Source: Patescibacteria group bacterium
Lineage (GTDB): Bacteria > Patescibacteriota > Minisyncoccia > UBA6257 > GWB1-50-10
Length of the DNA stretch: 64,000 nucleotides
NCBI GenBank assembly: GCA_024239035.1
Contig: JANBVK010000001.1
Span: 506,202-570,201 of the forward strand
Direction: 5' to 3'
This document shows, piece by piece, positions 541 to 45,167 of this stretch (the first letter of the stretch is position 1; each line of letters opens with the position of its first letter). The notes under the pieces are model-generated. The model was not told where the DNA came from and searched no databases. It saw only the letters and a list, made by a program, of their open reading frames with translations. The position numbers and the translations under genes were made by a program.

Positions 541-1128
541 ATGCCTGAAACAAAATCTCCAACAATACCAACAACCCCTCCGTCTCCGAATAATTTAAAA
601 GAACAGTTTGTATCTGAGGCTATTCCTGTTGGACTTCCTTGGCGACTGCTCATTTTTTCACTTATTCTCTTTGGTTTTTCCCTTTTTGTATTTTTTGGTC
701 TGCGTTTCGGGTACAACTCTTACATTGATACCAGAACCGGGGACCTTGATGAAAAAATTGGGAATCTAAGTGGGCAGGTCAGTCAGGAAGAGCAACAAAG
801 TTTTATTAACTTTTATTCTCAACTCGTCAATCTCAAGAAAGTTCTCGATCGCCACGATTTCACTGCCAGTATTTTCAGCTTTCTTGAAAAGAACACTCTT
901 GGGAAAATTTCTTACATTGATGCTGATTTTACCGTTCTAGACAGTTCGTTAACTTTAAAGGGAGCTGCTGCATCAAGTGAGTCACTAATCAATCAACTCA
1001 CTTTATTTGATGAATCCCTGGAAGTGGATCGGGTTGTTTTAAATCAAATGAACTCTAGTAAGGATGGAGTAACTTTTGGCGTAACGCTATTTTTCAATCC
1101 AGATTTTTTTAAGAAGCCAGCATTATAA
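541..1128 (+). CDS. pilN: PilN-like pilus assembly protein (single N-terminal TM helix)
   Basis: 195 aa. TM helix LLIFSLILFGFSLFVFF followed by a periplasmic coiled region. Sits between pilM and pilO. Confidence 0.5.
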   Translation: MPETKSPTIPTTPPSPNNLKEQFVSEAIPVGLPWRLLIFSLILFGFSLFVFFGLRFGYNSYIDTRTGDLDEKIGNLSGQVSQEEQQSFINFYSQLVNLKKVLDRHDFTASIFSFLEKNTLGKISYIDADFTVLDSSLTLKGAAASSESLINQLTLFDESLEVDRVVLNQMNSSKDGVTFGVTLFFNPDFFKKPAL

Positions 1129-1129
1129 C

Positions 1130-1699
1130 ATGAAAACATCAACCAAAAGAATTTTGAGCATCGGTTTAGCAGGACTTTTCTTTATTGGTATTCTTGTAGT
1201 CTTTGGCAGCCTTATCCGGCCGGAGATGACGAAAATCAACGAGAAGAGAGCTCTTCTAAGTTCCAAAGAAACTCTTTTTAGCAACGAGCAGGATGCCGTC
1301 AGTCAGGTAAGGGATCTTATTGGTCAATTTCAGAGTATCGTCAAGCTTCAAGAGACCGTTTCTTTAGCCCTTCCTTTAGAGGAGAACATTACTCAGATTT
1401 TAAACCAACTGCAATCTATTGCTAATTTATCTAATGTTGAGATGAGGTCTTTTTCTATAAGACCCCTTGCTTTTGAGGCGTCAAGGCAGCCTTTAGTAAA
1501 AAGGTTGGGTGTTTTGGAATTAGATATCTCTATTGATGGTCCATATGATAATATTAAAAATTTCCTAAGATCACTTGAGACGAACGTCCGGGTAGTCAAT
1601 GCAAAGAGTTTTCGTCTTGCCACCATTAGTGGTGAAGGTTCACCACCTGGCGAAGATTTTAATATGACATTAACAGTCGAGGTATACCATCAAGAATAA
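1130..1699 (+). CDS. pilO: PilO-like pilus assembly protein
   Basis: 189 aa. N-terminal TM helix then coiled coil. Operon position after pilN with a 1-nt spacer. Confidence 0.45.
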   Translation: MKTSTKRILSIGLAGLFFIGILVVFGSLIRPEMTKINEKRALLSSKETLFSNEQDAVSQVRDLIGQFQSIVKLQETVSLALPLEENITQILNQLQSIANLSNVEMRSFSIRPLAFEASRQPLVKRLGVLELDISIDGPYDNIKNFLRSLETNVRVVNAKSFRLATISGEGSPPGEDFNMTLTVEVYHQE

Positions 1700-1707
1700 C
1701 CAGCGTT

Positions 1708-1998
1708 ATGGCCATCACCATTGAACAAGAAAAAAAACCAGTTAATTGGGTCGCTATTCTTACAGCGGTTGTTATTGTCGTTGTTTTGTTTATTGGGACT
1801 TATTTCCTCTTTTTCAAAAAACCCGAGCTGATTGAAATAGTGACTCCAGGAACGCTTCAGGACGTAAGTAAAATTTCCAAACTTTCTTTTGATCCTGAGA
1901 GTGTCTTGAATTCGCCCACCTTCAAGCTTTTGAGGCAGTACGGTACGGGCGTTACGGTTCCTACTCCTGGTCGGAGTAACCCGTTTAAGCCGTTTTAA
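1708..1998 (+). CDS. Small membrane protein at the end of the pilMNO operon (PilP-like?)
   Basis: 96 aa. TM helix ILTAVVIVVVLFIGTYFLFF. Tightly coupled to pilO. Confidence 0.3.
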   Translation: MAITIEQEKKPVNWVAILTAVVIVVVLFIGTYFLFFKKPELIEIVTPGTLQDVSKISKLSFDPESVLNSPTFKLLRQYGTGVTVPTPGRSNPFKPF

Positions 1999-2210
1999 AG
2001 GGCTTTGTATAAATTTTCAAGCTAAGGGCGATAAAAATTTATGTACAAAACCTTTATCCTGAGCCAGTCGAAGGATTATAATTTAAAAGGTGACTCTTCG
2101 ACTCCGCTCAGAGTGCTCAATGTTGTAGGACATTCGGCTGAGCTCAGTCGAAGCCATAAATCTTCTTCACTGCGCATTGAACTCCGTTCGAAAATTTATA
2201 CAACATTGGC
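1999..2210 (+). promoter_or_regulatory. Conserved pilus-gene leader module, copy B, upstream of pilB
   Basis: Starts AGGGCTTTGTATAAATTTT immediately after a stop codon, as copy A does. Contains the 28-mer 2123-2150, which is the exact reverse complement of 374-401. Confidence 0.5.
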
Positions 2211-3944
2211 ATGACAGATCAAGCTTTATTTAAAGAACTAGTTGAGAAGAAAGTTTTAGATAAGTCATTAGCAGAGAAAACACTAAGAGACGCCGGTTTT
2301 ACTGGTCGTTCGGCTGAGGAGATTTTGTACGAGAAGCGACTAGTTGACGAAATTGTCACTGCGAAGGTTAAAAGTGAACTCTTAGGAGCCCCTTACAAAA
2401 AAATTGATCCAACAGCTATTCCCGACGATCTGCTTAAAATTATCCCTTACGAAACTTCAAAAACGTATCGGGTTATTCCCATTGAGAAGCAGAAGGATAT
2501 GCTTGTTGTTGGAATGCTGCGTCCGGATGACGTGAGAGCGCAAGAAGCCCTTCGCTTTATCGCCAAACGTGAGCGTTTGTCTTTAGGTGTTTTTATTATT
2601 ACCCCCTCAGACTTAACGGCTGTTTGGCGCCGCTACACACCTTACCGGAGTGAGATTGAATCCGCTGTTAAGGAACTGAGCGTGAAACCGGACGAAGAAG
2701 AGCGCCTCATTTCTCTAGAAGAAGGAACAAAGAGCGCCGAAGAAGCGCCTATCATAAAAATTGTTGCTTCAACTCTGCGGCAGGCAGTTGAGGTTTCTGC
2801 CTCAGATGTTCATATTGAACCGCAGCGTTCACGTTTGAGATTAAGGTTTAGGGTTGATGGCAAGCTTCAAGAAGTTGCTTCTCTACCTCTCTCACTCAGT
2901 AAGCCGATTGTTTCTCGGGTTAAAGTGCTCTCTCGCCTCCGACTTGATGAGACACGTATTCCCCAAGACGGACGCTTTAGAACCTTGGTTTTTGGCAGGG
3001 ATATTGATTACCGTGTCTCCACTTTCCCGACGCCCTCCGGTGAAAAGGTGGCTATCAGGGTGCTTGATCCTACTACCGGTCTTCGGGGGTTGAAAGAGAT
3101 AGGACTTAGTGATTACAATTTTAAAATTTTAGACAAAGCAATAAAAGCCCCTTATGGAATGATTTTGATCACCGGCCCTACTGGTTCGGGTAAGACAACA
3201 ACTCTTTATGCAATAATGCAGAAGATTAACAGAGAAAGTCTGAATATTGTGAGTTTAGAAGACCCGGTAGAGTATTTTATGGATGGTATTAACCAGTCTC
3301 AAGTTAGACCTAAGATCGGTTATGATTTTGCCTCCGGTCTTCGTCAAATTCTTCGTCAGGACCCGGACGTGATTATGGTTGGCGAGATTCGTGACTCCGA
3401 AACAGCTTCATTAGCAGTAAACGCCGCGCTTACCGGGCATATGATGCTGTCAACGCTGCATACGAATAATTCTGTCGGCGTCATTCCTCGTTTGGTTGAT
3501 CTTGACGTGCCGGGCTTTCTTTTGTCTTCAGCGCTAAACTTAATGTTGGCCCAGCGATTAGTTGCGCGGCTTTGTCCGGATTGCAGAGAAAAAAGTAAAG
3601 CGCCGCCGGAGGCACAAAAAGTTATAGCTCTTAACCTGGATTCGTTATCACCGGTATTGAAAAAAAATATAAAGTTCACTTCTCCCTATAATACTTATCA
3701 TACTAACCCTAAAGCTGACTGTAAGTCTTGTGGTGGTAAGGGTTTTGTTGGTCGGATAGCAATTTTTGAAATTTTCAGAATGACCCGAGAGTTGGGAGAG
3801 ATTATTAACGCCGGATTTACGGAAGGAAAACTTCGGGATGAGGCTCGTCGCCAGGGGATGGTTAATCTAAGGCAAGACGGTATTATTAAAGCACTAGAAG
3901 GAGATGTTTTATTAGAAGAAGTACTTAAAGAAACAGAGCAATAA
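2211..3944 (+). CDS. pilB: Type IV pilus assembly ATPase PilB (GspE family)
   Basis: 577 aa. Walker A ITGPTGSGKTTTLYA and a GspE N-terminal domain. C-terminal tetra-Cys (CPDC...CKSCGGKG). Confidence 0.9.
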   Translation: MTDQALFKELVEKKVLDKSLAEKTLRDAGFTGRSAEEILYEKRLVDEIVTAKVKSELLGAPYKKIDPTAIPDDLLKIIPYETSKTYRVIPIEKQKDMLVVGMLRPDDVRAQEALRFIAKRERLSLGVFIITPSDLTAVWRRYTPYRSEIESAVKELSVKPDEEERLISLEEGTKSAEEAPIIKIVASTLRQAVEVSASDVHIEPQRSRLRLRFRVDGKLQEVASLPLSLSKPIVSRVKVLSRLRLDETRIPQDGRFRTLVFGRDIDYRVSTFPTPSGEKVAIRVLDPTTGLRGLKEIGLSDYNFKILDKAIKAPYGMILITGPTGSGKTTTLYAIMQKINRESLNIVSLEDPVEYFMDGINQSQVRPKIGYDFASGLRQILRQDPDVIMVGEIRDSETASLAVNAALTGHMMLSTLHTNNSVGVIPRLVDLDVPGFLLSSALNLMLAQRLVARLCPDCREKSKAPPEAQKVIALNLDSLSPVLKKNIKFTSPYNTYHTNPKADCKSCGGKGFVGRIAIFEIFRMTRELGEIINAGFTEGKLRDEARRQGMVNLRQDGIIKALEGDVLLEEVLKETEQ

Positions 3945-3954
3945 TGAATACTCC

Positions 3955-5028
3955 ATGATGGATTACAAGAAAAAATTAGATGAGTTGTTGCTTATCACCG
4001 CTCGTCAAAACGCCTCTGATCTTCACATAGCGGTTGGTCGCCGTCCGACTATCCGGATAGATAGTGTTCTCGTTCCTCTTGCTAAGGAAACTATTCTCAC
4101 TAAGGAGGATGCCGAAGGTTTAGTGCTTACTCTTTTGACAGAGGAACAAAAAAAAGCTTTCTCTCTGAAGAAACAAGTTGATTTTTCATACAGCCTTGAA
4201 GACAAAGCCCGATTCCGGGTTAATGTTTACATGCAGCGAGCTTTTATGGCCGCCGCACTTCGTTTAATTCCAGCTCAGATTAGAACGATTGAGGAACTGA
4301 ATCTACCACCGCTTATCCACGATTTCACTAGACTTAATCAGGGATTCATTTTAGTAGTTGGGCCGGCTGGTCACGGCAAGTCTACCACCTTAGCGGCTCT
4401 TCTTGATGAAATTAACCACAAACGGACAGACCATATCATTACCGTGGAAGACCCGATTGAGTATTTATTTTCACAGGACCGGTGCATTATCTCTCAGCGA
4501 GAAGTGGGACTTGATACCCTTTCTTTTGGTGATGCTCTTCGTTCGGTTTTACGTCAGGATCCAGACGTAATTATGATTGGTGAGGTTCGGGATCCGGAGA
4601 CAATGGCAACGGCTATGACGGCGGCTGAGACTGGCCATTTAGTGTTCTCCACCATGCACACGAATTCCGCCTCTCAAACAATTGACAGAATAATTGATAG
4701 TTTCCCGCCTAGTCAGCAGGGTCAGATTATTTCACAACTCGCATCAACACTTGTTGCCGTTGTCTCCGAGCGTTTGATTCCACGTGTTGGGGGTGGCAGG
4801 ATCCCAGCTACCGAGATTATGTTGGCCAACCCCGCCATCAGAAACCTTATTCGGGAGAAGAAAATTTATCAGATTGACTTGGTTATTGAAACGAGTGTTC
4901 AGGAGGGGATGTTGTCACTAAACCGTTCGCTCGTGAATTTAATAAAGAGCAAGGAAGTTTCCTTAGAACAAGCAAAGGGTTATTCCCTAAACCCGGCCGA
5001 GCTGGGAATATTACTTGAAAGAACATGA
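3955..5028 (+). CDS. pilT: Twitching-motility retraction ATPase PilT
   Basis: 357 aa. Walker A VVGPAGHGKSTTLAAL. PilT-type length with no N-terminal GspE domain. Confidence 0.85.
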   Translation: MMDYKKKLDELLLITARQNASDLHIAVGRRPTIRIDSVLVPLAKETILTKEDAEGLVLTLLTEEQKKAFSLKKQVDFSYSLEDKARFRVNVYMQRAFMAAALRLIPAQIRTIEELNLPPLIHDFTRLNQGFILVVGPAGHGKSTTLAALLDEINHKRTDHIITVEDPIEYLFSQDRCIISQREVGLDTLSFGDALRSVLRQDPDVIMIGEVRDPETMATAMTAAETGHLVFSTMHTNSASQTIDRIIDSFPPSQQGQIISQLASTLVAVVSERLIPRVGGGRIPATEIMLANPAIRNLIREKKIYQIDLVIETSVQEGMLSLNRSLVNLIKSKEVSLEQAKGYSLNPAELGILLERT

Positions 5029-6230
5029 AATTTGGCTATAAAGCTAGAACTAAAGAAGGAGAGCTTCAAATCGGCAATGTTGAAGCAGCTAATCGTGACA
5101 GCGCGTTAAGTATCCTTTTGGGGCACGGACTTTTTGTTTTGAGTTTGGAGCTGATTTTGGAAGTTCACTGGTACGCAAGAATACTTGATTTCTTCAAGCG
5201 GGTTAAGTCGACTCATCTGATGATTTTTACCCGGCAGTTTGCTACTCTTCTTGCTTCCCAAGTACCCCTTTCAGATAGTCTAGCCAACCTTTATCGTCAG
5301 ACCAGTCACCCGCTTCTTAAAGAAACTATTGCTGATATTGCCAATGACATTGATGCTGGCTTCTCCTTATCACAGTCTCTTGAGCGACACACGAGTATTT
5401 TCTCTGAGTTTTACGTCAATATGGTAAAGTCAGCTGAGGTAACTGGCCGCCTTTCCGAGGTGCTCGACTTCTTAGCAGATTATCTGGAAAAACAAGCTGC
5501 ACTGTTTGCTAAAGTTAAAAATGCACTAATTTATCCGATTTTTGTGATTGCACTTTTTATAGTGGTAGTGATTGTTATGGTTTCCGTAGTTTTACCTCAA
5601 ATCACTCCTATCTTTTCAGAGGCAAACATTGAATTACCTATTTTTACTCAAATTTTACTTAGCCTCGGTAACTTCATTTCTCGCTGGTGGTGGGCTGTTG
5701 GTATTGTACTTTTCGTGTTTCTTCTCATGATTATTGATTATTTCCAGACCGAAGAAGGAAAAGTGGTTTTTGATGAATTGAGTTTACGGGTACCTGTAAT
5801 CGGATTGCTTTTTCGGAAGCTCTACATTGCCCGTTTTGCCGAATCAAGCCGGGTGTTAATTAAGGGAGGCCTTACCATTCCCCAAGCAATTGAAATATCA
5901 TCTCATACCATCGGTAACACCGTTTACCAAGGATTACTCCACGAAGCATCAGGTCAGATCCGAAAAGGACAACTTCTTTCTAAAACACTTGAGGCGATGC
6001 CGGAGTTCCCACCGCTTGTTTCTCAGCTCATTAGCGTGGGGGAGACAACCGGTCGTTTGGAACAGCTTTTAGAAAAGGTTAGCGATTTTTATACTCGGGA
6101 GGTGGAAGACATGGTTAATAACTTAGTTACCCTTATCCAACCTGCGTTGATGGTTGTAATTGGCGGGATGGTGGCGCTCCTTTTTGCTTCAATTCTTCTG
6201 CCGCTCTATAATCTTTCGAGAGCTTTCTAA
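5025..6230 (+). CDS. pilC: Type IV pilus inner-membrane platform protein PilC (GspF family)
   Basis: 401 aa. Two GspF repeats and TM segments. ATGA overlap with pilT. Confidence 0.85.
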   Translation: MKFGYKARTKEGELQIGNVEAANRDSALSILLGHGLFVLSLELILEVHWYARILDFFKRVKSTHLMIFTRQFATLLASQVPLSDSLANLYRQTSHPLLKETIADIANDIDAGFSLSQSLERHTSIFSEFYVNMVKSAEVTGRLSEVLDFLADYLEKQAALFAKVKNALIYPIFVIALFIVVVIVMVSVVLPQITPIFSEANIELPIFTQILLSLGNFISRWWWAVGIVLFVFLLMIIDYFQTEEGKVVFDELSLRVPVIGLLFRKLYIARFAESSRVLIKGGLTIPQAIEISSHTIGNTVYQGLLHEASGQIRKGQLLSKTLEAMPEFPPLVSQLISVGETTGRLEQLLEKVSDFYTREVEDMVNNLVTLIQPALMVVIGGMVALLFASILLPLYNLSRAF

Positions 6231-6305
6231 ATAGATGAGATTGGCAATTATGCTATAATATTTTAAGAAAAGGTCGGCGAACGATAAATAGTTAACGAAA
6301 GTAAA

Positions 6306-6683
6306 ATGTTAAATAATAAAGGATTTACCTTAATTGAAACATTAGTCGTTATAGCGATTATCGGGCTTTTAAGCTCAGTTGTAGTAATTGGTCTCGGCGG
6401 AGCAAGATCAAAAGCCAGAGACGCTCGCCGGATTGCGGATATCCGATCAATTCAGAGCGGTCTTGAGGTTGATTATACTGCAGTCGCTGGATACCCTGCC
6501 ACTATTCCGGCAAATGCCCCACAGACGGATCCGCAAGGTACGAGCTATGCTTATGAAATAGTTGGTACCGAAGGCTATCTACTGGGGATTTGTTTGGAAA
6601 ACACAGAAGGAACTACCGGTGCCGCTCCCTGCCCCGCTGCGGGTGTCAGTTGTGTTGGTAACGAGTACTGTGTTTCTCAATAA
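6306..6683 (+). CDS. Type IV pilin (prepilin N-terminal cleavage/methylation domain)
   Basis: Leader MLNNKG|FTLIETLVVIAIIGLL. C-terminal Cys-rich tail. Confidence 0.7.
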   Translation: MLNNKGFTLIETLVVIAIIGLLSSVVVIGLGGARSKARDARRIADIRSIQSGLEVDYTAVAGYPATIPANAPQTDPQGTSYAYEIVGTEGYLLGICLENTEGTTGAAPCPAAGVSCVGNEYCVSQ

Positions 6684-6703
6684 CACTCGATTATATACAC
6701 GAA

Positions 6704-7144
6704 ATGAATAATAAAGGATTCACTCTTATTGAAATGCTTGTCGTTATTGCGATTATTGGTCTTCTCTCTTCAACAATTTTGATTGGTTTGGGGAACGCGC
6801 GGACTCGGGCACGGGACGCGCGGCGTATCTCTGATTTGCGCCAAGTACAGAACGGTTTGGAAAATCATTATGTGGAGAGTAATCAAACTTACCCTCAGGA
6901 TGTCTACAATTCCATCTCCGGCCTGCCCGTTGACCCACAAGGAGGAGAGTACGGTTATGTGAGGATTAGTACCCAAAGTTATGTGCTGGGAGCGTGTCTT
7001 GAAAATGACAGATCAAGCGACATTCAGAGCTTTAGTAGTAACTATGATGTGAGTCCTATTGGCAGTCCACTTATACCGCCGCCTACTTGTAACTGCGAAG
7101 ATTCTGATTCTTACTGCGTCGCAATTGGAATAGGCGGCCGTTAA
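6704..7144 (+). CDS. Type IV pilin, second paralogue
   Basis: Leader MNNKG|FTLIEMLVVIAIIGLL. C-terminal Cys residues. Confidence 0.7.
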   Translation: MNNKGFTLIEMLVVIAIIGLLSSTILIGLGNARTRARDARRISDLRQVQNGLENHYVESNQTYPQDVYNSISGLPVDPQGGEYGYVRISTQSYVLGACLENDRSSDIQSFSSNYDVSPIGSPLIPPPTCNCEDSDSYCVAIGIGGR

Positions 7145-7280
7145 GGGGCTTGGTATAAATTTTCGAGGCCTACTCGATGAAAATTTATTTACCAAACCTT
7201 TACCCGCCTAAATTTTTGCGAAGTAAAAACTTGGGTGGGTGCTCAAATTTATAACTTCGCTTTACTCAGATAAATTTGGC
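7145..7280 (+). promoter_or_regulatory. Conserved pilus-gene leader module, copy C, upstream of pilD
   Basis: GGGGCTTGGTATAAATTTT after the stop, GATGAAAATTTAT, CCAAACCTTTACCC, and AAATTTGGCATG at the start codon. Confidence 0.45.
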
Positions 7281-8180
7281 ATGTCGTATATTTATTATTT
7301 AATCCTCTTTTTATTCGGGCTCTCGGTGGGGAGTTTTTTGAATGTCGTTGCTCTGCGGTATCAACCATCACGTAGTGTTTTTGATCCTCGAAGTTTAAGT
7401 GGACGGTCTAATTGCCCTTACTGCAGAGCGAAACTTGAGTGGTTTGAATTAATTCCAATAATCTCTTTTCTTATTCAGAAAGGGAAGTGTCGAAGGTGTG
7501 GTCACCGATTATCTTTCCAGTATCCTGTTGTTGAACTTTTATCGGGACTAATTTTCATTGCCGTCCCTTTTTATTTTCATAGATTTTACGGTGTTCTTAA
7601 TCTCTTTTCCTTTGATTCTTCGCTTCACTCTTTTTATGGGTTCCTAGTTGTTTGGGTTTTAGTATTTATTGTCTGGCTTTTAATTAGTATTATTGACAGC
7701 CGCCATTATCTTATTCCTAATGAGTTGAACGTGAGCTTGGGGATACTAGGAGTAATTATCGTTCTTATTAAAAGCTTCCCTTCCTCATGGCTTCTGCCTT
7801 TTCATAATACTTTTTTGCGGCATTATGAACTTTTGTTTTCACCTTTTCAAAACGTAATTGCAAACCATTTGTTAGGAGCTTTGTTAGGAGCTCTTTTTTT
7901 CGGGATTTTAATAGTTGTGAGTCGCGGTCGGGCAATGGGATTAGGTGATGTAAAACTTGCCTTGGCTTCTGGTTTAGTGCTTGGCTGGCCTGATATTGGT
8001 TTGGCAACGCTTTTGGCTTTTATTTTTGGTGGGGCGTGGGGTGTAATTTTACTGCTTACAAAGAAAAAGACTATGCGCGATAAAATTCCTTTTGCCCCTA
8101 TTTTTATTTTAGGTGTCGTTGTTACAGTATTTTTTGGCTTTGGAATTGTAAACGGCTACTTTAGTTTGTTTAATATTTAG
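7281..8180 (+). CDS. pilD: Prepilin peptidase PilD (A24 family)
   Basis: Polytopic membrane protein with a CPYC...CRRCGH zinc motif. The ATG at 7281 follows the conserved TTTGGCATG. The ORF track starts at an upstream GTG at 7239, which lies inside the leader. Confidence 0.8.
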   Translation: MSYIYYLILFLFGLSVGSFLNVVALRYQPSRSVFDPRSLSGRSNCPYCRAKLEWFELIPIISFLIQKGKCRRCGHRLSFQYPVVELLSGLIFIAVPFYFHRFYGVLNLFSFDSSLHSFYGFLVVWVLVFIVWLLISIIDSRHYLIPNELNVSLGILGVIIVLIKSFPSSWLLPFHNTFLRHYELLFSPFQNVIANHLLGALLGALFFGILIVVSRGRAMGLGDVKLALASGLVLGWPDIGLATLLAFIFGGAWGVILLLTKKKTMRDKIPFAPIFILGVVVTVFFGFGIVNGYFSLFNI

Positions 8181-8257
8181 CGTCCGAGCTTCGCTAGCTT
8201 TTTAGCTTCGCTAGCCTATTAGCTGTATAATAATAAGAGTGGCTATTTATTGGTCTA

Positions 8258-8860
8258 GTGAGTCAGGTTCTAATGAAGTTAATGAAGCTAATTAAGCTAA
8301 AAGCTAGTAACGGCTTTACGTTGGTTGAAATAATGGTGGTTATTGCGATCACCGTACTTCTCTCTAGTATAGCAATTACCTACAATCGTTCGGGAGAGCG
8401 GCAGATTGTCCTGTTCCGCGATCAGGCACTTGTTGTGGGACTTTTAAACAGGACGAAATCCCTTGCTATTCAAAAGTACCGTGATCCGGACATCTCAGGA
8501 GATTACTCGACCTGCGCCTTTGGCTTGCACTTTGAGTCGGGTTCGCGCGATTTTATTCTTTTTCAAGATTTCGGAGAGGGTGGCTGTAGTCTGGCTAATT
8601 ATGCATATGGCCCGACAGATCCTACCGCTACCCCCCCGCCACCACTCGAGGAACTGGAAAGTTTTTCTCTGGATTCTAAACTGGAGTTCTCTGGAATACC
8701 AATAGGCGGTTTGGACATTCTTTTTGTCCCCCCCGAGCTTACTGCGACGACTACACACGCGAGTGGATTTCCAGTGACTATTACTATTCAAACAGTGGGT
8801 GGTGGGTCTACTGTTCCCATCACCGTCTTTTCAATTGCCGGTCAGATTATCACGGATTAA
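8258..8860 (+). CDS. Minor pilin / pseudopilin (FimT/GspH-like)
   Basis: SNGFTLVEIMVVIAITVLLSSIAI prepilin motif. An extended -10 (TGTATAATA) lies upstream at about 8225. Confidence 0.55.
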   Translation: MSQVLMKLMKLIKLKASNGFTLVEIMVVIAITVLLSSIAITYNRSGERQIVLFRDQALVVGLLNRTKSLAIQKYRDPDISGDYSTCAFGLHFESGSRDFILFQDFGEGGCSLANYAYGPTDPTATPPPPLEELESFSLDSKLEFSGIPIGGLDILFVPPELTATTTHASGFPVTITIQTVGGGSTVPITVFSIAGQIITD

Positions 8861-8866
8861 AATTCA

Positions 8867-9379
8867 ATGAAATATTTTTTAAAAAATAGAGAAGGAAACT
8901 TGTTAATTGAATCCATGGTTGGAATCAGCATCGCGGTAGTGGGACTTTTAGGTATCTTGGGTTTACTCTCCCGGTCTTTAGCTATTAATAAGGACGTTGG
9001 TCAAAAATTTATTGCAACTTATCTGGCTGCGGAAGGTATTGAAGTAGTAAAGAGCTTGATTGATAAGGACTATGCAGACGGAAATGCGTGGAATACTACA
9101 GTAACGGGCGGCAGTCACGAGGTGAGTTATGATAGCACCGCGCTTACAACATTGGTTGGTAGTCCTAATACCTTACTTTTCGATTCAACCGACAGAACGT
9201 ATAGTTACGCGGGTGGCAACCCAACCCTTTTTACGAGAACTGTTGATATTGTGGAAATAGATAATAATGGCGACGGTGGGACTGATGAGATAAAAGTAAA
9301 TTCCATTGTCCAGTGGTTGGCACGGGGAGTTACCCAAGAAGTTAATCTTGAGGACCATTTTTTTGACTGGCGACCATGA
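8867..9379 (+). CDS. Minor pilin (PilV-like)
   Basis: N-terminus GNLLIESMVGISIAVVGLLGIL, a degenerate class III signal. Sits in the minor-pilin operon. Confidence 0.45.
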   Translation: MKYFLKNREGNLLIESMVGISIAVVGLLGILGLLSRSLAINKDVGQKFIATYLAAEGIEVVKSLIDKDYADGNAWNTTVTGGSHEVSYDSTALTTLVGSPNTLLFDSTDRTYSYAGGNPTLFTRTVDIVEIDNNGDGGTDEIKVNSIVQWLARGVTQEVNLEDHFFDWRP

Positions 9380-9939
9380 AGAAAGTAGAACTAAAAACTA
9401 GTCGGGGATTCACTTTAGTTGAATTAATTGTTGCTATGTCTATTTTTTTAATTGCTATTGTGATTATCGTCGGAGTATTTGTCCGCTCTTTAAGAACTCA
9501 GCGGATCGTGAACCACTTAATGGCTGTTAACAGCAATACCAGTTTGGTTATTGAGCAGATGGCGCGAGAGGTCAGGACTGGTTATGAATTTAGACTTAAC
9601 CCTGCGGGTAGTGCATGCGTTGGTGGACAGAGAGAAGAGCTGGAGTTTACAAACTCTAAAGGTAATAAGGTTTTCTATCATGAAGAAAGTGGCGCTATTG
9701 CGCGTGAGGAGTGTGCCGGAGGGGATTGTACAAGTTCAAGTTTTGAACCGCTGACGGCTTCTAATATAACGGTGGATCGTTTGTGTTTTTTAAATACCGG
9801 TAACCCGAATAATAATAGGGATCCATGGCGGATCACAATATTTTTAACGGTTGATTCATCCAATCCTCAGCTCGCGGGCAATATTATTAATTTTCAGACT
9901 ACGGTGGGTGCAAGAATTTTACCCGAAGATCTGGAGTAG
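9376..9939 (+). CDS. Minor pilin (PilW-like)
   Basis: SRGFTLVELIVAMSIFLIAIVII motif. ATGA overlap with the upstream gene. Confidence 0.55.
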   Translation: MKKVELKTSRGFTLVELIVAMSIFLIAIVIIVGVFVRSLRTQRIVNHLMAVNSNTSLVIEQMAREVRTGYEFRLNPAGSACVGGQREELEFTNSKGNKVFYHEESGAIAREECAGGDCTSSSFEPLTASNITVDRLCFLNTGNPNNNRDPWRITIFLTVDSSNPQLAGNIINFQTTVGARILPEDLE

Positions 9940-9945
9940 AGTAGT

Positions 9946-10374
9946 ATGCAAATCCGAAATAAACATACAAACGCGAAAGGGAGTGAGGGGCAGGCCCTTC
10001 AACGCAATTCAGGGCAGGTAATGCTTATTAGTGTCATCATGCTCGGCGGTATACTTTTAAGTGCCGCTGCAATTGCAGGGCTTCTCACAATTTATCAGAT
10101 CCGAGCCGCTAATGACGTAGTAAACTCCGCTAAGGCCATTTTTGCTGCAGATACTGGTATTGAGGTGGTAAGTTGGTGTTTCTTTAAAGGGTGCTCTCCG
10201 AATGAAGCGCAAAACCCCCCGGCTATTCCCTTTGATGACGCATCCGTTTCTTTCGAAGTTAATTCAAGCATTGACCCCGTCAACTTTGAATTGAACATTG
10301 TTTCAAGAGGTCTTGCAGCGAATGGAAAAGCAATTAGGATTTTGGAAGCCATTTTTGAGACACCAGCTCCTTGA
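9946..10374 (+). CDS. PilX-like minor pilin
   Basis: N-terminal GQALQ...VMLISVIMLGGILLSAAAIAGL hydrophobic segment. Last gene of the pilin operon. Confidence 0.4.
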   Translation: MQIRNKHTNAKGSEGQALQRNSGQVMLISVIMLGGILLSAAAIAGLLTIYQIRAANDVVNSAKAIFAADTGIEVVSWCFFKGCSPNEAQNPPAIPFDDASVSFEVNSSIDPVNFELNIVSRGLAANGKAIRILEAIFETPAP

Positions 10375-40772: not shown

Positions 40773-41369
40773 TTAATTTCTTCGCTCCAGAGCTTGCTTC
40801 AATGTTTCCTCGTCTGCGAACTCAATTTCACCGCCGGTAGGAATCCCCCGGCCTAGGCGAGTAATTTTTTCGGACAGTCCTTGAAATTCTTTACGAATAA
40901 GATCGGCAGTGAAATCACCGAATGCGGTAGGACTCAAGGCTAGAATAATTTCCTTTGCCTTGCCGCCTAGTTCCTGAGAGATCCTCTCTCTTAAGTGTTG
41001 GAATCGCAGTTTTTGGTTACTGGTGAGAGTTCCGTGTTCAACCAACTCTCCTAAAATAAGGTAGTGTCCCATAAAGTTTCCAGCCTTTTCAATAGAGAGG
41101 AGATCAGCTTCTTTTTCAACAATAGTAATGATGTTTTTATCACGCTTAGGATCAGTACAAATTGAACACAGGCGTCCGCCGCTTTTCATAAAAAAACACC
41201 TCGGGCAGCGATTGACTCTTTTTAGGCCGGAGAAGGCCGACTCCAGCTCTCCTAAATTGTTTTTATCAATACTCAATAGATAAAAAGCGAGCCGTGTCGC
41301 CATCCGCGGTCCGATTGAAGGGAGTTTGGAAAAAACCTCAATAAATTTTTTAATAGGATCGGGAAGCAT
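40773..41369 (-). CDS. recR: Recombination protein RecR
   Basis: HhH, C4 zinc finger (CPRC...CSIC) and Toprim domain. Confidence 0.9.
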   Translation of the reverse strand: MLPDPIKKFIEVFSKLPSIGPRMATRLAFYLLSIDKNNLGELESAFSGLKRVNRCPRCFFMKSGGRLCSICTDPKRDKNIITIVEKEADLLSIEKAGNFMGHYLILGELVEHGTLTSNQKLRFQHLRERISQELGGKAKEIILALSPTAFGDFTADLIRKEFQGLSEKITRLGRGIPTGGEIEFADEETLKQALERRN

Positions 41370-41381: not shown

Positions 41382-42728
41382 CTAAACTTTGTCTGTGTGT
41401 CGGGTGTCAATGTTTCTAAAACTCACTTTTTCCGCGTCAAATTTCAGTTTCACGGTTCCTAAAGGACCGTTTCGGTGTTTAGAGATGATAACCTCAACTA
41501 GATTTTGTTCTTCTTCAGAGACATCAATTCCTCCCCGGTCTTTACGGTAGAGAAAGAGGACAACGTCGGCATCCTGCTCAAGCGAGCCTGATTCCCGGAG
41601 ATCTGAGAGGCGGGGAACTTTTCCTTCTCTTTGATCAACGGCTCGGGAAAGCTGAGAGACGGCAAGCAACGGAATTTTTAGTTCTCTTGCTAGCGATTTT
41701 AAGCCGCGGGATATCTCAGTTACTTGTTGGACCATGTTGTCGCTCCCGGTCCGGGGGCGAACGAGTTGTAAATAGTCAACAATTAATAAATCTAAACCGT
41801 GATCTATTTGAAGTCGGCGCGCCATTGATCTCATCTGGAGAATATTAGGGGACGGTGTGTCGTCAATAAAAAGGCGGGTTTTGGAGATCTCATCAAGAGC
41901 TTGTTGGATAAGAGCAAAATCCATATCTTCGTTAAGTCGGCCGGTTCGGAGACGCCAGAGCGGTATTTGGGCCTGAGTCGCAATTACTCGGTCTATAACT
42001 TGGTCGCGGGACATCTCAAGGGAAAATACTCCAACCGAGAGACCGTTAAGAGCAGCTCCCCGGGCAATATCAAGAACAAAAGCAGTTTTACCAAAAGAGG
42101 GTCTTGCTCCAATTATAATGAGATCGGATTTTTGCAGTCCCGAGAGAATTGAATCTAGGCCGTGAAATTCGGTAGCAACACCTCTTAGTTTTCCTCCTTC
42201 GCCGTGGTGGAGTTTTTCTAATCTTTCATAGGCGGCCGGTAGCTCATCTTTAATGTGGATAAATTTTTGACTTTTGGATCGTCCCGAAATATCAAAAACC
42301 TTTTGTTCCGCCAGATCGAGAAGGTTCTCAAAATCGTCTTGTTCCAGGGCTTCTTCGTTGATCTCTGATGAGATTCGAATCAAGTCGCGTCGCACTCTCT
42401 TTTCTCTGACAATATTAGCGTAGGGAATAACATGAGCGGCGGTCGGGACACTGTTTATAAGTTCTGTTAAATAATTGGCTCCGCCAACTTCTTTGAGTTG
42501 ATGCTTTTCTTTCAGCCGACTTGAAACAGTTAGGAGATCTACTGGTTCACCCTGTTCAAAGAGATCTAAGACGCTCTCGTAGATCTTTTGGTGGTTAGGA
42601 TGGTAGAAGTCTGTTGGCTGTATAACGTCAACGACTTTCAGGATCGCGTTTTTATCGAGGACAAGCGAACCGAGCACTGAACGCTCGGCCTCTAAATCCT
42701 GAGGTGGAAGCTTAAGATTTTTAGGCAT
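41382..42728 (-). CDS. dnaB: Replicative DNA helicase DnaB
   Basis: DnaB N-terminal domain plus a RecA-like core with Walker A GARPSFGKTAF. Confidence 0.9.
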   Translation of the reverse strand: MPKNLKLPPQDLEAERSVLGSLVLDKNAILKVVDVIQPTDFYHPNHQKIYESVLDLFEQGEPVDLLTVSSRLKEKHQLKEVGGANYLTELINSVPTAAHVIPYANIVREKRVRRDLIRISSEINEEALEQDDFENLLDLAEQKVFDISGRSKSQKFIHIKDELPAAYERLEKLHHGEGGKLRGVATEFHGLDSILSGLQKSDLIIIGARPSFGKTAFVLDIARGAALNGLSVGVFSLEMSRDQVIDRVIATQAQIPLWRLRTGRLNEDMDFALIQQALDEISKTRLFIDDTPSPNILQMRSMARRLQIDHGLDLLIVDYLQLVRPRTGSDNMVQQVTEISRGLKSLARELKIPLLAVSQLSRAVDQREGKVPRLSDLRESGSLEQDADVVLFLYRKDRGGIDVSEEEQNLVEVIISKHRNGPLGTVKLKFDAEKVSFRNIDTRHTDKV

Positions 42729-42736
42729 AAAGGCAG

Positions 42737-44146
42737 TTAAACCGCCTTTCGGATAAAGGGTCCGAAGGGGGTATCTTCTACCTCATATCCTACCCGCTTT
42801 ATTTTTTTTCTCAAGGCATCAGCTTGAGTAAACTGTTTATTATGTCTGAATAACTCGCGTTGCCTGGCAAGAACTTGGAGTTTTTTCGGTACTTTTGCGG
42901 GCCTTAGAGTCAAGCCGAAAATTGCGAGTGCTGACTCAATAAATTCTTTAATGATCTTAGCGTTGCGTTTCGGGAGGCTCCAAACGTTTTTTTGGAATCG
43001 GCTGATTAAACTAAAAATAACCGCTAAAGCCTCGGGGGTATTCAGATCATCTTGAAGCACTCGGTGGAGAACTTGTTCTTTTTGTTTAACTACTTTACTG
43101 ACGTTGAATTTTGGTAAACTAGAAGATTTTTTCGGGGATTTATGTTTTATAATAACGGCTAGTTTTTCTAAAAATTCTTGAATGGTTTGAAGTGAAGCGC
43201 GGGCTTGAGACGCAAGATTGGGGGTATAATTTATGGGTGTTCGGTAATGATGACTAAGTACGATCCAGCGAAGCACTTCAGGCGGGTATTTTTTAAGAAA
43301 ATCGCGAATTGTTATGAAGTTCTTTAAGCTCTTTGACATTTTCTTACGATGGACAAGCAGGAAACCGGTGTGCATCCAAATTTTCACAAAAGGTTTTCGG
43401 CCCGACGCTGCTTCTTGTTGAGAAATTTCTGCTTCATGGTGGGGAAATTTTAAATCAATTGCACCGCCGTGAACATCGTATTGGGGTCCGAAGAAACTTT
43501 CTGAAATTGCAGTGTCTTCTATGTGCCACCCCGGTCGTCCCCGGCCAAGCGGTGTATCCCAAGCGGGTTCTCTACCTCCCTTTGTTTTTACGAATTTCCA
43601 TAGCGCGAAATCACCCTTGTTTCTTTTATGTGACGATTCGTCAATTCGCGTGACGGCGTCCTCGGCCTGGGCCGCGGTGCGCTTTGAGAGTTTGCCGTAA
43701 TCGCTGAATTTAGCAATATCAAAATAGTACCCGTCTTTTGCTTCATAAGCGTACCCCTTTCTGGTTAAAGTTCGGATTTGCCGTATTATTTGGGGGATGA
43801 AGTCGCTAGCACGGGCATACCGATTTACTGAGGTAATCTTTAATCTTTTTATGTCCTCTAAATATTTCTTTTCAAAGGATTTGGCGAGAGTGAGTGGGTT
43901 TTTACGTTTTCTGCGCGCTCGGTCAATAATTCTATCCTCAACATTAGTGATGTTTTGTAAATAAAAGACACGCCATCCCAAAAAACGGAGATAACGGACG
44001 AAGATATCAAAAGCCAGATAAGTGCGACCGTGGCCGATGTGAGAATAATCATAGACGGTCGGTCCGCAGACAAATAGTTGCAGAGGACGTCCCTTAGGCT
44101 TTGTTAGCTTTTCTTTTTTGCCGGTGAGAGAGTTATAAATGCGCAT
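42737..44146 (-). CDS. cysS: Cysteine--tRNA ligase
   Basis: HIGH (HIGHGRT) and KMSKS motifs. 469 aa. Confidence 0.9.
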   Translation of the reverse strand: MRIYNSLTGKKEKLTKPKGRPLQLFVCGPTVYDYSHIGHGRTYLAFDIFVRYLRFLGWRVFYLQNITNVEDRIIDRARRKRKNPLTLAKSFEKKYLEDIKRLKITSVNRYARASDFIPQIIRQIRTLTRKGYAYEAKDGYYFDIAKFSDYGKLSKRTAAQAEDAVTRIDESSHKRNKGDFALWKFVKTKGGREPAWDTPLGRGRPGWHIEDTAISESFFGPQYDVHGGAIDLKFPHHEAEISQQEAASGRKPFVKIWMHTGFLLVHRKKMSKSLKNFITIRDFLKKYPPEVLRWIVLSHHYRTPINYTPNLASQARASLQTIQEFLEKLAVIIKHKSPKKSSSLPKFNVSKVVKQKEQVLHRVLQDDLNTPEALAVIFSLISRFQKNVWSLPKRNAKIIKEFIESALAIFGLTLRPAKVPKKLQVLARQRELFRHNKQFTQADALRKKIKRVGYEVEDTPFGPFIRKAV

Positions 44147-44148
44147 TT

Positions 44149-45105
44149 TTACTGGCTCCAGTTCAGAATAATGTCGTCTATTCTGGGTGTCATACTCTGG
44201 GCAAGATTACTCTCAAGAGTGACCCTGTAGCGGAGATATCGGTTGTCTTTTATCCATTCTCTGTCGCAGCTTTTTATCTCAATTGCACTGTTGGGCCCGG
44301 GGCAAGTGGCACCAAAGAATTGGTCGGTATCTCCTTGACCATCACAGGCGATATCCGGTCCCCAAAAGCTCCAAGGTCCGCTTGAGCTGTTTGATGCTGC
44401 AATTTGGAATTTAGTGCAAGTTCCGGCTGGCTGACTACCCTGCCAGATGATGCTGTTTAGAGTTACTCCACCCGCTATCTGGGCATCAAAAATTGATGAT
44501 TCCAAGATTGCGGTGAGTTTGCCTGCTCTCCAACTTGTTTCGACTTTATAATCAGAGATGCCGCAGCCGTTGTTGTTAGCGCAGTTAAAACTAATCCAGC
44601 CCTCATCGTCGTTCCAAGCGTATCCCTGGAAGATTCCATTAGCGTCTATGGTTACCCGGTAGTTTGAACTAGAACACGTGCTTGAGGCATCCTCAACTCC
44701 TGAACCATCGCAGTCACCATCGCCGCACCAAAAACTAATCCAGCTAATTTGGTCATTCCAGGCGCAACCGGAGAGATTGCCGCTGCCGTCCGGATTTGTG
44801 ACTTGGTAATCACTGGTTGAGCAAATGTCTCCGATTGGACTTGTGGCGCAGTCAAGAGAAATTTCTTCGATTGACGAGCTGGCATAACCGACAAGTGTTG
44901 AGGTGCCGACAATAACGGTGTGGGTCTTATGAAAATCCCACCAACCGCTTATATCACTCCACGCCATGCTACTGGTGGCATTTGAGCTAATGTTAGTTCC
45001 GGGGTTACTGTCCGCCGCCGCTTTTTGGGATTGAAAAAACAAAACAATCGTGAGAGTAACAGTCATTACTACAAGGATCCAAAAAATGACTTTTGCAACT
45101 TTCAT
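44149..45105 (-). CDS. Secreted Cys-rich repeat protein (3 copies of GxAWND..xWISFxC)
   Basis: Signal/anchor VIFWILVVMTVTLTIVLFF, then repeats SGCAWNDQISWISFWC, QGYAWNDDEGWISFNC and others. Its stop is 2 nt upstream of cysS. Confidence 0.5.
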   Translation of the reverse strand: MKVAKVIFWILVVMTVTLTIVLFFQSQKAAADSNPGTNISSNATSSMAWSDISGWWDFHKTHTVIVGTSTLVGYASSSIEEISLDCATSPIGDICSTSDYQVTNPDGSGNLSGCAWNDQISWISFWCGDGDCDGSGVEDASSTCSSSNYRVTIDANGIFQGYAWNDDEGWISFNCANNNGCGISDYKVETSWRAGKLTAILESSIFDAQIAGGVTLNSIIWQGSQPAGTCTKFQIAASNSSSGPWSFWGPDIACDGQGDTDQFFGATCPGPNSAIEIKSCDREWIKDNRYLRYRVTLESNLAQSMTPRIDDIILNWSQ

Positions 45106-45167
45106 TGATTAAATTATAACAGAACTCGAATTGGGGGCATTTATGGTACTATTAAAATAAATACAGC

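What the first reader, a model, noticed from the sequence alone, without database searches (positions are those of the whole stretch)
44149..45105. Exported Cys-rich protein with a threefold GxAWND...WISFxC repeat, tightly coupled upstream of cysS-dnaB-recR
Three repeats share the core (S/Q)G(C/Y)AWND(Q/D)xxWISF(W/N)C plus conserved Cys pairs (SGCAWNDQISWISFWCGDGDC, QGYAWNDDEGWISFNCANNNGC, and a degenerate third copy). There is an N-terminal signal/anchor. Its stop codon is only 2 nt before the cysS start, so an envelope protein appears to be co-transcribed with core replication and translation genes, which is an unusual pairing. A divergent promoter region at 45106-45167 is shared with the giant lipase/beta-helix protein.
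Basis: seen in the sequence. Interest (0 to 1): 0.5.

Follow-up and report, generated by a model that had tools for sequence, protein, structure and literature searches.

The report
Secreted pilus-linked binding protein, new repeat
The gene encodes a secreted, disulfide-rich protein built from a previously undescribed four-hairpin repeat plus a lectin-like sandwich; in related ultra-small (CPR) bacteria it is fused to, or encoded beside, a type IV pilus tip subunit, so it is most likely a pilus-associated adhesin, and its position next to cysS-dnaB-recR is inherited gene order rather than shared function.

Summary
The ORF (44149-45105, minus strand, 318 aa) is real. Its stop codon lies 2 nt before the cysS start. 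The repeat is real but fourfold, not threefold: a cryptic unit (GYASSSIEEISLDC) lies between copies 1 and 2.

The protein has a Sec-type signal peptide with an AxA cleavage site. It has a four-hairpin module with one conserved Cys pair in each of units 2-4, and a C-terminal galactose-binding-like beta-sandwich. Pfam, NCBIfam and PDB sequence searches match neither domain.

The family is large and confined, as far as named sources show, to Patescibacteria. There are 551 close homologues, and 6297 50%-identity clusters carry the module.

The X-cysS-dnaB-recR order is conserved in about 56 of 86 loci. A corA-like gene or a small four-helix-bundle gene sometimes interrupts it. In 27 loci the gene instead sits inside a type IV pilus operon between minor-pilin genes. 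At least 26 of the 150 best module-bearing cluster representatives are in-frame fusions of a PilV-like minor pilin to this whole protein.

My reading is that it is a stand-alone version of a modular-pilin payload, probably a pilus-tip adhesin. The cysS linkage looks like a relic of rearrangement in a very compact genome. This is a new variant of a known kind, of moderate interest.

The parts
44149..45105 (-). ORF 'X', 318 aa plus stop. It is an exported two-domain protein.
   Evidence: There are 551 homologues at E<=1e-3. The AF2 model has mean pLDDT 89.8.
45013..45105 (-). Residues 1-31, a Sec-type signal peptide: n-region MKVAK, a 19-residue h-region, and c-region QSQKAAA with predicted cleavage before D32. 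It is not a prepilin (class III) signal.
   Evidence: The sequence is and the helix at 2-26. An AxA-type site directly before the conserved TNIS motif is found in 70 of 84 homologues by a strict pattern. By eye, most of the other 14 also have one; three that do not (L018, L063, L081) are fusion proteins. There is no Gly(-1)/Glu(+5) and no PF07963 hit. The 45105 start is preferred over Met14 (P0001 annotation) because MK..K.IFW is conserved in homologues.
44890..44976 (-). Repeat unit R1 (residues 44-72): hairpin AWSDISGWWDF plus strand TVIVG. It has no Cys loop.
   Evidence: hhalign R1-R3 95.5%, R1-R4 96.9%
44770..44889 (-). Repeat unit R2 (residues 73-112): the cryptic unit GYASSSIEEISLDC...C..SDYQV, with the invariant pair C86/C95.
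   Evidence: hhalign R2-R3 96.9%, R2-R4 96.9%.
44626..44769 (-). Repeat unit R3 (residues 113-160): GCAWNDQISWISFWC...C.SSNYRVTID, with the conserved pair C127/C144. C114 and C132 are extra Cys specific to this subfamily.
44530..44625 (-). Repeat unit R4 (residues 161-192): GYAWNDDEGWISFNC....CGISDYKVETSW, with the conserved pair C175/C181.
   Evidence: hhalign R3-R4 99.4%, E 4e-21.
44152..44523 (-). C-terminal beta-sandwich (jelly-roll) domain, residues 195-318. It ends in the family-wide ...RYLRY.V.L.S....TP..DDI.LNWS motif.
42737..44146 (-). cysS. It starts 2 nt after the stop of X, and a GGAG lies 9 nt upstream of its ATG, inside X.
41382..42728 (-). dnaB, 8 nt after cysS.
40773..41369 (-). 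recR, 12 nt after dnaB. It is the end of the co-oriented block, because rplU converges from the other strand.
45106..45167 (.). 62-nt divergent intergenic region between X and the 1258-aa beta-helix/lipase gene. It contains TTATAAT 8 nt upstream of the X start. Promoter function is not verified.
   Evidence: The consensus scan listed no site here and found no more sites in the region than in shuffles.
10..10374 (+). Context: a type IV pilus cluster in the same window, running off its 5' edge. Genes are the pilM 3' end, pilN, pilO, pilB 2211-3944, pilT 3955-5028, pilC 5025-6230, two pilins 6306-7144, pilD 7239-8180 and four minor pilins 8258-10374. X is not part of it.

Best explanation
X is a Sec-exported, signal-peptidase-I-processed, disulfide-stapled binding protein with two domains. 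The first is a compact module of four beta-hairpin repeats, predicted to form an eight-stranded up-and-down barrel-like unit. The second is a C-terminal galactose-binding-domain-like beta-sandwich.

At family level it is the stand-alone form of a 'payload' that other Patescibacteria display on a PilV-like type IV pilus minor pilin. It is therefore most likely presented at or near the pilus tip by non-covalent docking on the minor-pilin complex. This would work like PilY1/PilC or the ETEC secreted protein that acts with the type IVb pilus, though X is not related to them. There it would act as an adhesin or lectin for a surface ligand, presumably on a host cell.

In this lineage the gene was separated from the pilus operon by a rearrangement. 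It has since been inherited in front of cysS-dnaB-recR, with which it is probably co-transcribed but not functionally linked.

Shown: the ORF, the repeat, conservation, the signal-peptide features, both gene-order classes and the fusions. Inferred: tip docking, ligand binding, disulfides and co-transcription.
For: (1) Gene fusion. Among the 150 best module-bearing cluster representatives, 33 start with a canonical prepilin motif (G-Q/F-S/T-L-I-E...). Of these, 26 have the complete pilin + four-repeat module + beta-sandwich architecture, for example P0134, P0141, P0154, P0171 and P0172. In-frame fusions are also seen in loci L081 and L085. The fusion partner family carries PF07963 and source names such as 'PilV family' and 'pseudopilin PulG'. 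A second pilin type (GFTLIE..., P0132 with PF07963, P0145, P0169, P0244, L005 3225-4613) carries the module alone at its C-terminus.

(2) Gene neighbourhood. In 27 of 86 loci the order is pilin-pilB-pilC-minor pilin-PilV-like minor pilin-X-minor pilin-pilM. In L006 the PilV-like gene overlaps the X start by 4 nt.

(3) Intermediates. In 6-8 loci X lies divergent from a minor pilin + pilM pair while already upstream of (corA-)cysS-dnaB-recR. These loci form one subclade within the cysS-linked clade, and the pilus-embedded genes form the other clade.

(4) Export. An AxA site before the conserved TNIS is present in 70 of 84 homologues by a strict pattern, and by eye in most of the rest. Cys pairs are conserved in units R2-R4.

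(5) Fold. The C-terminal domain resembles carbohydrate-binding and discoidin-type sandwiches. The module resembles small eight-stranded ligand-binding barrels in topology only.

(6) The window's genome does encode a type IV pilus machine.

(7) Precedents. Modular pilins are widespread, and many of their modules lack database signatures (PMC8179133). In Saccharibacteria TM7x, lectin-like PilX1 and PilX2 lack PilD signals and are proposed tip adhesins (PMC11623550). PilC/PilY1 docks on a tip minor pilin through a short motif (bioRxiv 10.64898/2026.09.18.752573).
Against: In this window X is 34 kb from the pilus cluster, and no PilV-like partner with the 'QTDWSGGPG...STNIDY' extension was found in the window. 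The window's 170-aa minor pilin belongs to a different family whose listed members are mostly 150-200 aa, with no module fusion apparent. The 120 listed of 757 partner-family hits include none from the 729-kb source scaffold. So in this genome X may have lost its pilus partner.

Confidence: 0.55

Rival explanations
1. X is a pilus-independent secreted or wall-associated lectin. After leaving the pilus operon, the cysS-linked clade (including this gene) functions as a free or envelope-bound binding protein with no pilus contact. It might bind its own wall, host glycans or matrix.
For: X is 34 kb from the pilus genes here, and no PilV-like partner was detected in the window. The module also occurs at the C-terminus of large non-pilin surface proteins carrying F5/8-C, DUF2341+fn3, Ig-like or beta-propeller-like regions (P0122, P0139, P0148, P0146, P0190). 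Simpler hairpin repeats fill giant surface proteins (P0123, P0187, P0254). The divergent neighbours of X are usually big surface proteins.
Against: Architecture and sequence are conserved between the cysS-linked and pilus-embedded clades (44-57% identity, same domains), which argues for a conserved role. Intermediates keep pilM and a minor pilin next to X. The genome retains a pilus machine.
Confidence: 0.25
2. X is a non-canonical minor pilin. The N-terminal hydrophobic helix is not removed and inserts into the filament like a pilin alpha-1N, so that X replaces a GspJ/PilW-type subunit in the tip complex.
For: In pilus-embedded operons X occupies the slot where the window's own cluster has a canonical 187-aa pilin (9376-9939). 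TM7x PilX1 and PilX2 are called minor pilins yet lack predicted PilD signals (PMC11623550).
Against: There is no Gly(-1)/Glu(+5) and no PF07963 hit. The helix is only about 25 residues, followed by a low-confidence linker (pLDDT <50 at 27-33), and no pilin globular domain packs on it. A well-conserved AxA site sits just after the helix. In the fusions the signal peptide is absent and the module follows a complete pilin domain.
Confidence: 0.08
3. X is a soluble cargo secreted through, or with the help of, the pilus machinery (like TcpF or CofJ of type IVb systems). It would act as a released effector rather than an adhesin fixed to the tip.
For: It is encoded within pilus operons, has a Sec signal and has no anchor after cleavage. 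The precedent is a secreted protein acting with the ETEC type IVb pilus (PMC6048534).
Against: Recurrent covalent fusion to a minor pilin means the domains work while tethered to the filament. Monoderm-like Patescibacteria have no outer membrane that would demand a dedicated secretion step (general knowledge).
Confidence: 0.07
4. There is a functional or regulatory coupling with cysS-dnaB-recR. For example, translation of a Cys-rich upstream ORF could tune cysS expression, or an envelope protein could be coordinated with replication.
For: The spacer is 2 nt and a GGAG for cysS lies inside X. The protein has 12 Cys in 318 residues. The X-cysS-dnaB-recR order is conserved in about 56 of 86 loci.
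Against: The junction is interrupted by a corA-like gene in 11 loci and by a four-helix-bundle gene in 4. Linkage is absent in 27 loci. Short spacers are the norm in this genome, with a median of 18 nt. cysS, dnaB and recR are themselves functionally unrelated. Ribosome stalling at Cys codons would lower, not raise, coupled cysS translation (inference).
Confidence: 0.05

Closest known systems
Modular type IV pilins (e.g. Streptococcus sanguinis PilB with a vWA module and PilC with a ConA-like lectin module; PMC8179133, PMC9934059)
   Same: A binding module is presented by the pilus. Homologues of X are literally such proteins: a PilV-like or GspH-like pilin module followed by the X domains. 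LamG/ConA-like lectin inserts co-occur in some of them (P0143).
   Different: X itself has no pilin module and carries a Sec/SPase I signal instead of a class III signal. The grafted module is a four-hairpin Cys-stapled unit plus a beta-sandwich that has no database signature.
PilY1/PilC, the non-pilin tip adhesin of type IVa pili (PMC7541494; bioRxiv 10.64898/2026.09.18.752573)
   Same: Both are non-pilin proteins. In some lineages X is encoded among minor-pilin genes. Both are proposed to sit on the minor-pilin tip complex as an adhesin. From my own knowledge, not checked here, PilY1/PilC also has an ordinary signal peptide and is encoded with the minor pilins.
   Different: There is no beta-propeller and no sequence or fold similarity. 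X is about 300 aa, against roughly 1000 aa or more. A C-terminal 'plug' was not tested, and the last strand of X is modelled as part of the sandwich.
Saccharibacteria TM7x PilX1 and PilX2 (PMC11623550)
   Different: PilX1 and PilX2 are described as having a pilin 'lollipop' N-terminal domain, which X lacks. The four-hairpin module is not reported there.
Galactose-binding-domain-like sandwiches (CBM32, F5/8 type C/discoidin, ephrin-receptor LBD)
   Different: No Pfam F5_F8_type_C or CBM hit was found in any of 40 family members. Identity is 5-15%. No binding-site residues could be assigned.
Small eight-stranded up-and-down beta-barrels (NspA, OprF N-domain, the TbpB/HpuA barrel, YceI, avidin-like proteins)
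   Different: The resemblance is in topology only, with 2-13% identity. X is a soluble exported domain built from four internal sequence repeats with disulfide-closed loops, and the matches give no sign of such repeats.

Membership tests
Type IV pilin / pseudopilin (class III signal peptide, PF07963 N_methyl) | A short charged leader ending in Gly (or Ala), then a hydrophobic alpha-1N with Glu at +5. The protein is cleaved and methylated by PilD. | tested here: not met
   The N-terminus MKVAKVIFWILVV... has no G(-1) or E(+5). There is no PF07963 hit in X or in 40 homologues, whereas fusion partners and neighbours do have it.
Type IV pilin / pseudopilin | A long N-terminal helix whose C-terminal half packs on a globular beta-sheet domain (the 'lollipop' fold). 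| tested here: not met
   In the AF2 model the helix spans residues 2-26 only. A disordered linker follows at 27-33, then the beta-rich repeat module.
Modular pilin (pilin module + grafted functional module) | An N-terminal pilin module covalently linked to an extra domain. | tested here: not met
   X lacks the pilin module. At least 26 homologous cluster representatives, and loci L081 and L085, have it. X is therefore the split-off payload, not a modular pilin itself.
PilY1/PilC tip adhesin | A C-terminal PilY1-type beta-propeller domain (IPR008707, Pfam Neisseria_PilC). | tested here: not met
PilY1/PilC tip adhesin | A C-terminal plug motif that binds a tip minor pilin by beta-strand augmentation. 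| not testable with these tools
   This needs multimer prediction or binding assays, and only single-chain prediction was available.
Sec-dependent secreted protein (signal peptidase I substrate) | A positively charged n-region, a hydrophobic h-region, and small residues at -3/-1 (AxA) before the mature N-terminus. | tested here: met
   The signal reads MKVAK / VIFWILVVMTVTLTIVLFF / QSQKAAA|D. The pattern is found in 70 of 84 homologues by a strict pattern, and by eye in most of the rest. No dedicated predictor was run. The h-region is long (19 aa), so an uncleaved anchor is not fully excluded.
Galactose-binding domain-like / CBM32 / F5_F8_type_C | A sequence match to the family profiles. | tested here: not met
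   No Pfam hit was found in X or in 40 homologues, and no PDB sequence hit.
Galactose-binding domain-like / CBM32 / F5_F8_type_C | The jelly-roll beta-sandwich fold. | tested here: inconclusive
Choline-binding / cell-wall-binding hairpin repeats (CW_binding_1) | About 20-aa aromatic hairpin repeats that match PF01473 and form a solenoid. | tested here: not met

The most novel reading that the evidence does not exclude
The four-hairpin, disulfide-stapled module plus sandwich is a new, Patescibacteria-wide host-recognition cassette of type IV pili. It is used either grafted onto a PilV-like minor pilin or as a separately secreted subunit that docks on the tip complex. Its sequence variation would then set which host surfaces these episymbionts can attach to. 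In the cysS-linked clade it would be a constitutively expressed adhesin that rides on a housekeeping operon.
Probability: 0.3. Interest if true: 0.65.

Novelty: new variant of a known kind. Interest (0 to 1): 0.5.

Why it matters
Patescibacteria (CPR) appear to live attached to other microbes, and type IV pili are their best-supported attachment device. The parts that actually recognise the host are almost unknown outside one cultivated Saccharibacterium.

This family gives a concrete, very widespread candidate. At least 6297 sequence clusters at 50% identity carry the module, and neither the protein nor its repeat has a Pfam or NCBIfam profile or a relative of solved structure.

The split-versus-fused distribution is a natural experiment. 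It shows which minor pilin is the likely docking partner, which makes the interaction directly testable.

The case also carries a caution. In these compact genomes a tight, conserved gene junction, here X-cysS, need not mean shared function.

Tried and rejected
- **Pfam and NCBIfam.** Searches on X, on 40 homologues and on nine other module-bearing proteins found nothing covering the repeat or the sandwich.
- **PDB sequence searches.** Profiles of the module and of the whole family gave zero hits at E<=10.
- **Foldseek.** The PDB search gave nothing below E 1e-3. The AlphaFold-database library was unavailable.
- **Literature.** Full-text searches for the motif strings (GWISF, AWSENIGW and others) found nothing relevant.
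- **Promoter and terminator scan, 40300-45400.** Counts were no higher than in shuffled sequence, so it is uninformative.
- **Window's 170-aa minor pilin (8867-9379).** I tested whether it is the fusion partner. Only the N-terminal helix aligns (hhalign 92.8% over 65 columns). Its own listed homologues are mostly 150-200 aa, with no module fusion apparent, so I rejected it as the direct partner.
- **Partner family in the source scaffold.** A search with the PilV-like partner profile showed no protein from the 729-kb source scaffold among the 120 listed of 757 hits, which leaves the question open.
- **Choline-binding-repeat idea.** This was a recollection from memory. I dropped it for lack of any profile or fold support.
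- **Cys-sensing leader idea for cysS.** I rejected it because of the interrupted and absent junctions in relatives.
Full report
**Observation.** The window holds an ORF at 44149..45105 on the minus strand that encodes 318 residues. Its TAA stop (44149-44151) is followed by two bases and then the ATG of a 469-aa gene. Pfam identifies that gene as cysteinyl-tRNA synthetase. dnaB follows after 8 nt and recR after 12 nt, all on the same strand. Upstream, a 62-nt spacer separates the ORF from a divergent 1258-aa gene with NosD/beta-helix, LCAT-lipase and PxKF domains. These parts of the finding are correct.

**The repeat.** Three copies of AW(S/N)D..(G/S)W(I/W)(S/D)F occur at residues 48, 115 and 163. 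The pattern occurs in no other six-frame ORF of the window. I cut an alignment of 40 homologues into units and compared the unit profiles:
- R3 against R4: 99.4% probability (E 4e-21).
- R1 against R3 and R1 against R4: 95.5% and 96.9%.
- R2 (residues 73-112, GYASSSIEEISLDC...C..S.Y.V) against R3 and against R4: 96.9% each.

The module is therefore four units of one plan: a beta-hairpin, a Cys-closed loop, then a short 'Y.V.ID..G.F.G' strand-turn. The first unit lacks the Cys loop, and the second has lost the tryptophans. Across the family C86/C95 are invariant, and C127/C144 and C175/C181 are at least 90% conserved. That is one Cys pair in each of units R2-R4.

**Conservation and known-family searches.** The protein has 551 homologues at E<=1e-3 in the 5.8-billion-protein collection. 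Where a source names them, they are 'hypothetical' proteins of Jorgensenbacteria, Brennerbacteria, Magasanikbacteria, Paceibacterota or 'Patescibacteria group'. The species-representative genome set holds 368 relatives. A profile of the module alone finds 6297 cluster representatives at E<=1e-3 among 1.84 billion.

No library match was found for any part of the protein:
- Pfam and NCBIfam give nothing for X, for 40 family members, or over the repeats of other module-bearing proteins.
- Profiles of the module and of the full family hit no PDB sequence at E<=10.
- Full-text searches for the motif strings found nothing.

**Anatomy.** The N-terminus is MKVAK, then 19 hydrophobic residues, then QSQKAAA|D. 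In homologues the hydrophobic stretch is always followed by small residues at -3/-1 and then a conserved (A/S/E)TNI(S/D) motif. A strict pattern finds this in 70 of 84 sequences, and most of the rest show it by eye. This is a signal-peptidase-I site, not a prepilin site: there is no Gly(-1), no Glu(+5) and no PF07963 hit. The 45105 start is preferable to the Met14 start of the database entry P0001, because the charged MK..K n-region is conserved.

AlphaFold2 with the 40-sequence alignment gives mean pLDDT 89.8. It models a helix at 2-26, a disordered linker at 27-33, a beta-rich repeat region, and a C-terminal sandwich from about residue 195.

Four hairpins forming eight strands fit that topology. 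I take it as a generic resemblance, not homology.

**Gene order in relatives.** I collected 86 loci. I located neighbours by tblastn, using the window's CysS, DnaB and RecR and the pilus proteins of two loci as queries. Three arrangements appear:

| Arrangement | Loci | Gene order |
|---|---|---|
| cysS-linked | 45 | X immediately upstream of cysS-dnaB-recR |
| cysS-linked, interrupted | 11 | the same, with a ~300-aa corA-like gene inserted between X and cysS |
| pilus-embedded | 27 | pilin-pilB-pilC-minor pilin-PilV-like minor pilin-X-minor pilin-pilM |

In four of the 45 cysS-linked loci (L003, L030, L033, L048) a small four-helix-bundle gene (23S_rRNA_IVP in L003) sits in a 430-nt gap between X and cysS. 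In the pilus-embedded arrangement there is no cysS nearby, and in L006 the PilV-like gene overlaps the X start by 4 nt.

In 6-8 loci X is already in front of (corA-)cysS, but its divergent upstream neighbours are a minor pilin and pilM. That is the pair which follows X in the pilus-embedded arrangement. A neighbour-joining tree of the X proteins puts all pilus-embedded genes in one clade and all cysS-linked genes in the other. The pilM-adjacent loci form one subclade of the latter.

The simplest history is an inversion or translocation that broke X out of a pilus operon next to cysS, followed by vertical inheritance.

**Fusions.** Of the 150 best module-bearing representatives, 33 begin with a canonical prepilin motif. 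Of those, 26 have the full architecture of a PilV-like pilin, the four-repeat module and the sandwich, and 73 are X-type. Some fusions also carry a LamG/ConA-like insert (P0143). Others place a second module inside a loop of the sandwich (P0150, P0153, and the 435-465-aa variants).

A different, GspH/FimU-like pilin carries the module alone at its C-terminus (P0132 with PF07963, P0145, P0169, P0244, and L005 3225-4613, which is 48% identical to X over residues 44-190). Two loci show in-frame PilV-like-X fusions (L081 and L085). The fusion partner family is labelled by its sources as a prepilin-type, PilV-family or PulG protein and often carries PF07963. This is a classical Rosetta-stone link between X and a pilus minor pilin.

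**Interpretation.** The literature supplies the frame:
- Pilins with grafted binding modules are widespread, and many modules have no database signature (PMC8179133).
- In the Saccharibacterium TM7x, two pilus-locus proteins with lectin-like domains and no PilD signal are the proposed host-binding tip adhesins (PMC11623550).
- The non-pilin adhesin PilC/PilY1 is held on a tip minor pilin by a short motif (bioRxiv 10.64898/2026.09.18.752573).
- A secreted protein cooperates with the ETEC type IVb pilus (PMC6048534).

X fits as the stand-alone form of such a payload. It would be exported by Sec, trimmed by signal peptidase I, oxidised, and docked non-covalently on the minor-pilin complex to bind an external ligand. 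The sandwich fold suggests a glycan ligand.

The family-level pilus link rests on shown facts, namely neighbourhood, fusions and the intermediate loci. Docking, the ligand and the disulfides are inferred.

**What remains uncertain for this genome.** The window contains a pilus cluster at 10-10374, running off the 5' edge of the window: the pilM 3' end, pilN, pilO, pilB, pilT, pilC, two pilins, pilD and four minor pilins. X is 34 kb away from it.

The window's 170-aa minor pilin aligns with the PilV-like partner only over the N-terminal helix. It belongs to a separate family whose listed members are mostly 150-200 aa, with no module fusion apparent. Members of that family occur in the same MAGs that also carry X (locus-tag prefixes WC475, AAB617 and ENH86). 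These organisms therefore seem to have two minor-pilin sets, as TM7x has two pili.

I could not find the second set within the window. None of the 120 listed partner-family hits (of 757) came from the 729-kb scaffold. X here may therefore dock on another pilin or work without the pilus, and I give that rival 0.25.

**The cysS question.** Co-transcription of X-cysS-dnaB-recR is likely, given the 2, 8 and 12-nt spacers and a GGAG for cysS inside X. It was not tested, and consensus promoter and terminator scans found no more sites than in shuffled sequence.

A functional link is unlikely for four reasons:
- The window is 90.6% coding, with a median same-strand spacer of 18 nt, and 24 of 46 junctions are 20 nt or less.
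- The last minor pilin gene is followed after 15 nt by ligA, then gatC and gatA, which is the same kind of 'envelope next to housekeeping' junction.
- The X-cysS junction is interrupted in 15 loci and absent in 27.
- cysS, dnaB and recR are themselves unrelated in function.

The protein is an undescribed but very widespread Patescibacterial family. Its best-supported role is a type IV pilus-associated binding protein. That makes it a new variant of a known kind (modular-pilin payloads and non-pilin tip adhesins), with a domain that has no described relative. Interest is moderate at 0.5. It offers a concrete, testable candidate for host recognition in uncultivated CPR lineages, but function and docking are still inferred.

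Noticed in passing
window 10-10374 (+): A type IV pilus gene cluster running off the 5' edge of the window: the pilM 3' end, pilN, pilO, a 96-aa ORF, pilB, pilT, pilC, two pilins, prepilin peptidase pilD and four minor pilins. ligA-gatC-gatA follow directly after a 15-nt gap.
   Followed up: partly
window 45168-48944 (+): A 1258-aa secreted protein that combines NosD/right-handed beta-helix repeats, an LCAT-type lipase/acyltransferase domain, an OmpL47/Ig-like region and a C-terminal PxKF domain. It is divergent from X. The divergent neighbour of X in relatives is usually a different large surface protein (LTD, Flg_new_2, cupredoxin).
   Followed up: partly
P0123, P0187, P0199, P0247, P0254: Large proteins (745-2159 aa) with 4-9 matched stretches of a simpler 'G(Y/W)AW(S/N)(E/D)N(I/L)GWI.F' hairpin repeat, interspersed with PKD, Ig-like or ALK/LTK glycine-rich domains. 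The hairpin unit is a general building block beyond the X family and has no Pfam model.
   Followed up: partly
L003 6969-7361; also L030 and L048; P0351, P0358, P0375, P0401, P0409, P0413: Small four-helix-bundle '23S rRNA-intervening sequence protein' (PF05635) genes are inserted between X and cysS in some genomes. They are also found fused or annotated together with minor pilins of both pilin families. This is a recurrent, unexplained association with pilus genes.
   Followed up: no
L021, L024, L034, L037, L060, L062-L064, L066, L069, L076: A conserved ~300-aa gene is inserted between X and cysS. Its N-terminus (…HPLI.DEL..PSDRSKVE.YDDY.F.VYHLP…) looks like the CorA magnesium transporter. 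That is my reading of the sequence, not a profile test.
   Followed up: no
L040 (JAUYPG010000040.1) and many loci titled 'uncultured Candidatus Saccharibacteria': A MAG labelled Nanoarchaeota carries the bacterial X-cysS-dnaB-recR block, so the contig is probably mis-binned. Many records titled Saccharibacteria group with Jorgensenbacteria/Paceibacteria-type genes, so the record titles are unreliable for taxonomy.
   Followed up: no
window 49569-50852 (+) and 51053-53512 (+): A lamin-tail-domain (LTD) secreted protein is followed by a ribonucleotide reductase with a TSCPD domain. The LTD-RNR pair upstream of X is also conserved in L002.
   Followed up: no
window 44149-45105 versus P0001: The public gene call for this protein (305 aa) starts at Met14 and removes the charged n-region of the signal peptide. 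Conservation in homologues favours the 318-aa start at 45105.
   Followed up: yes
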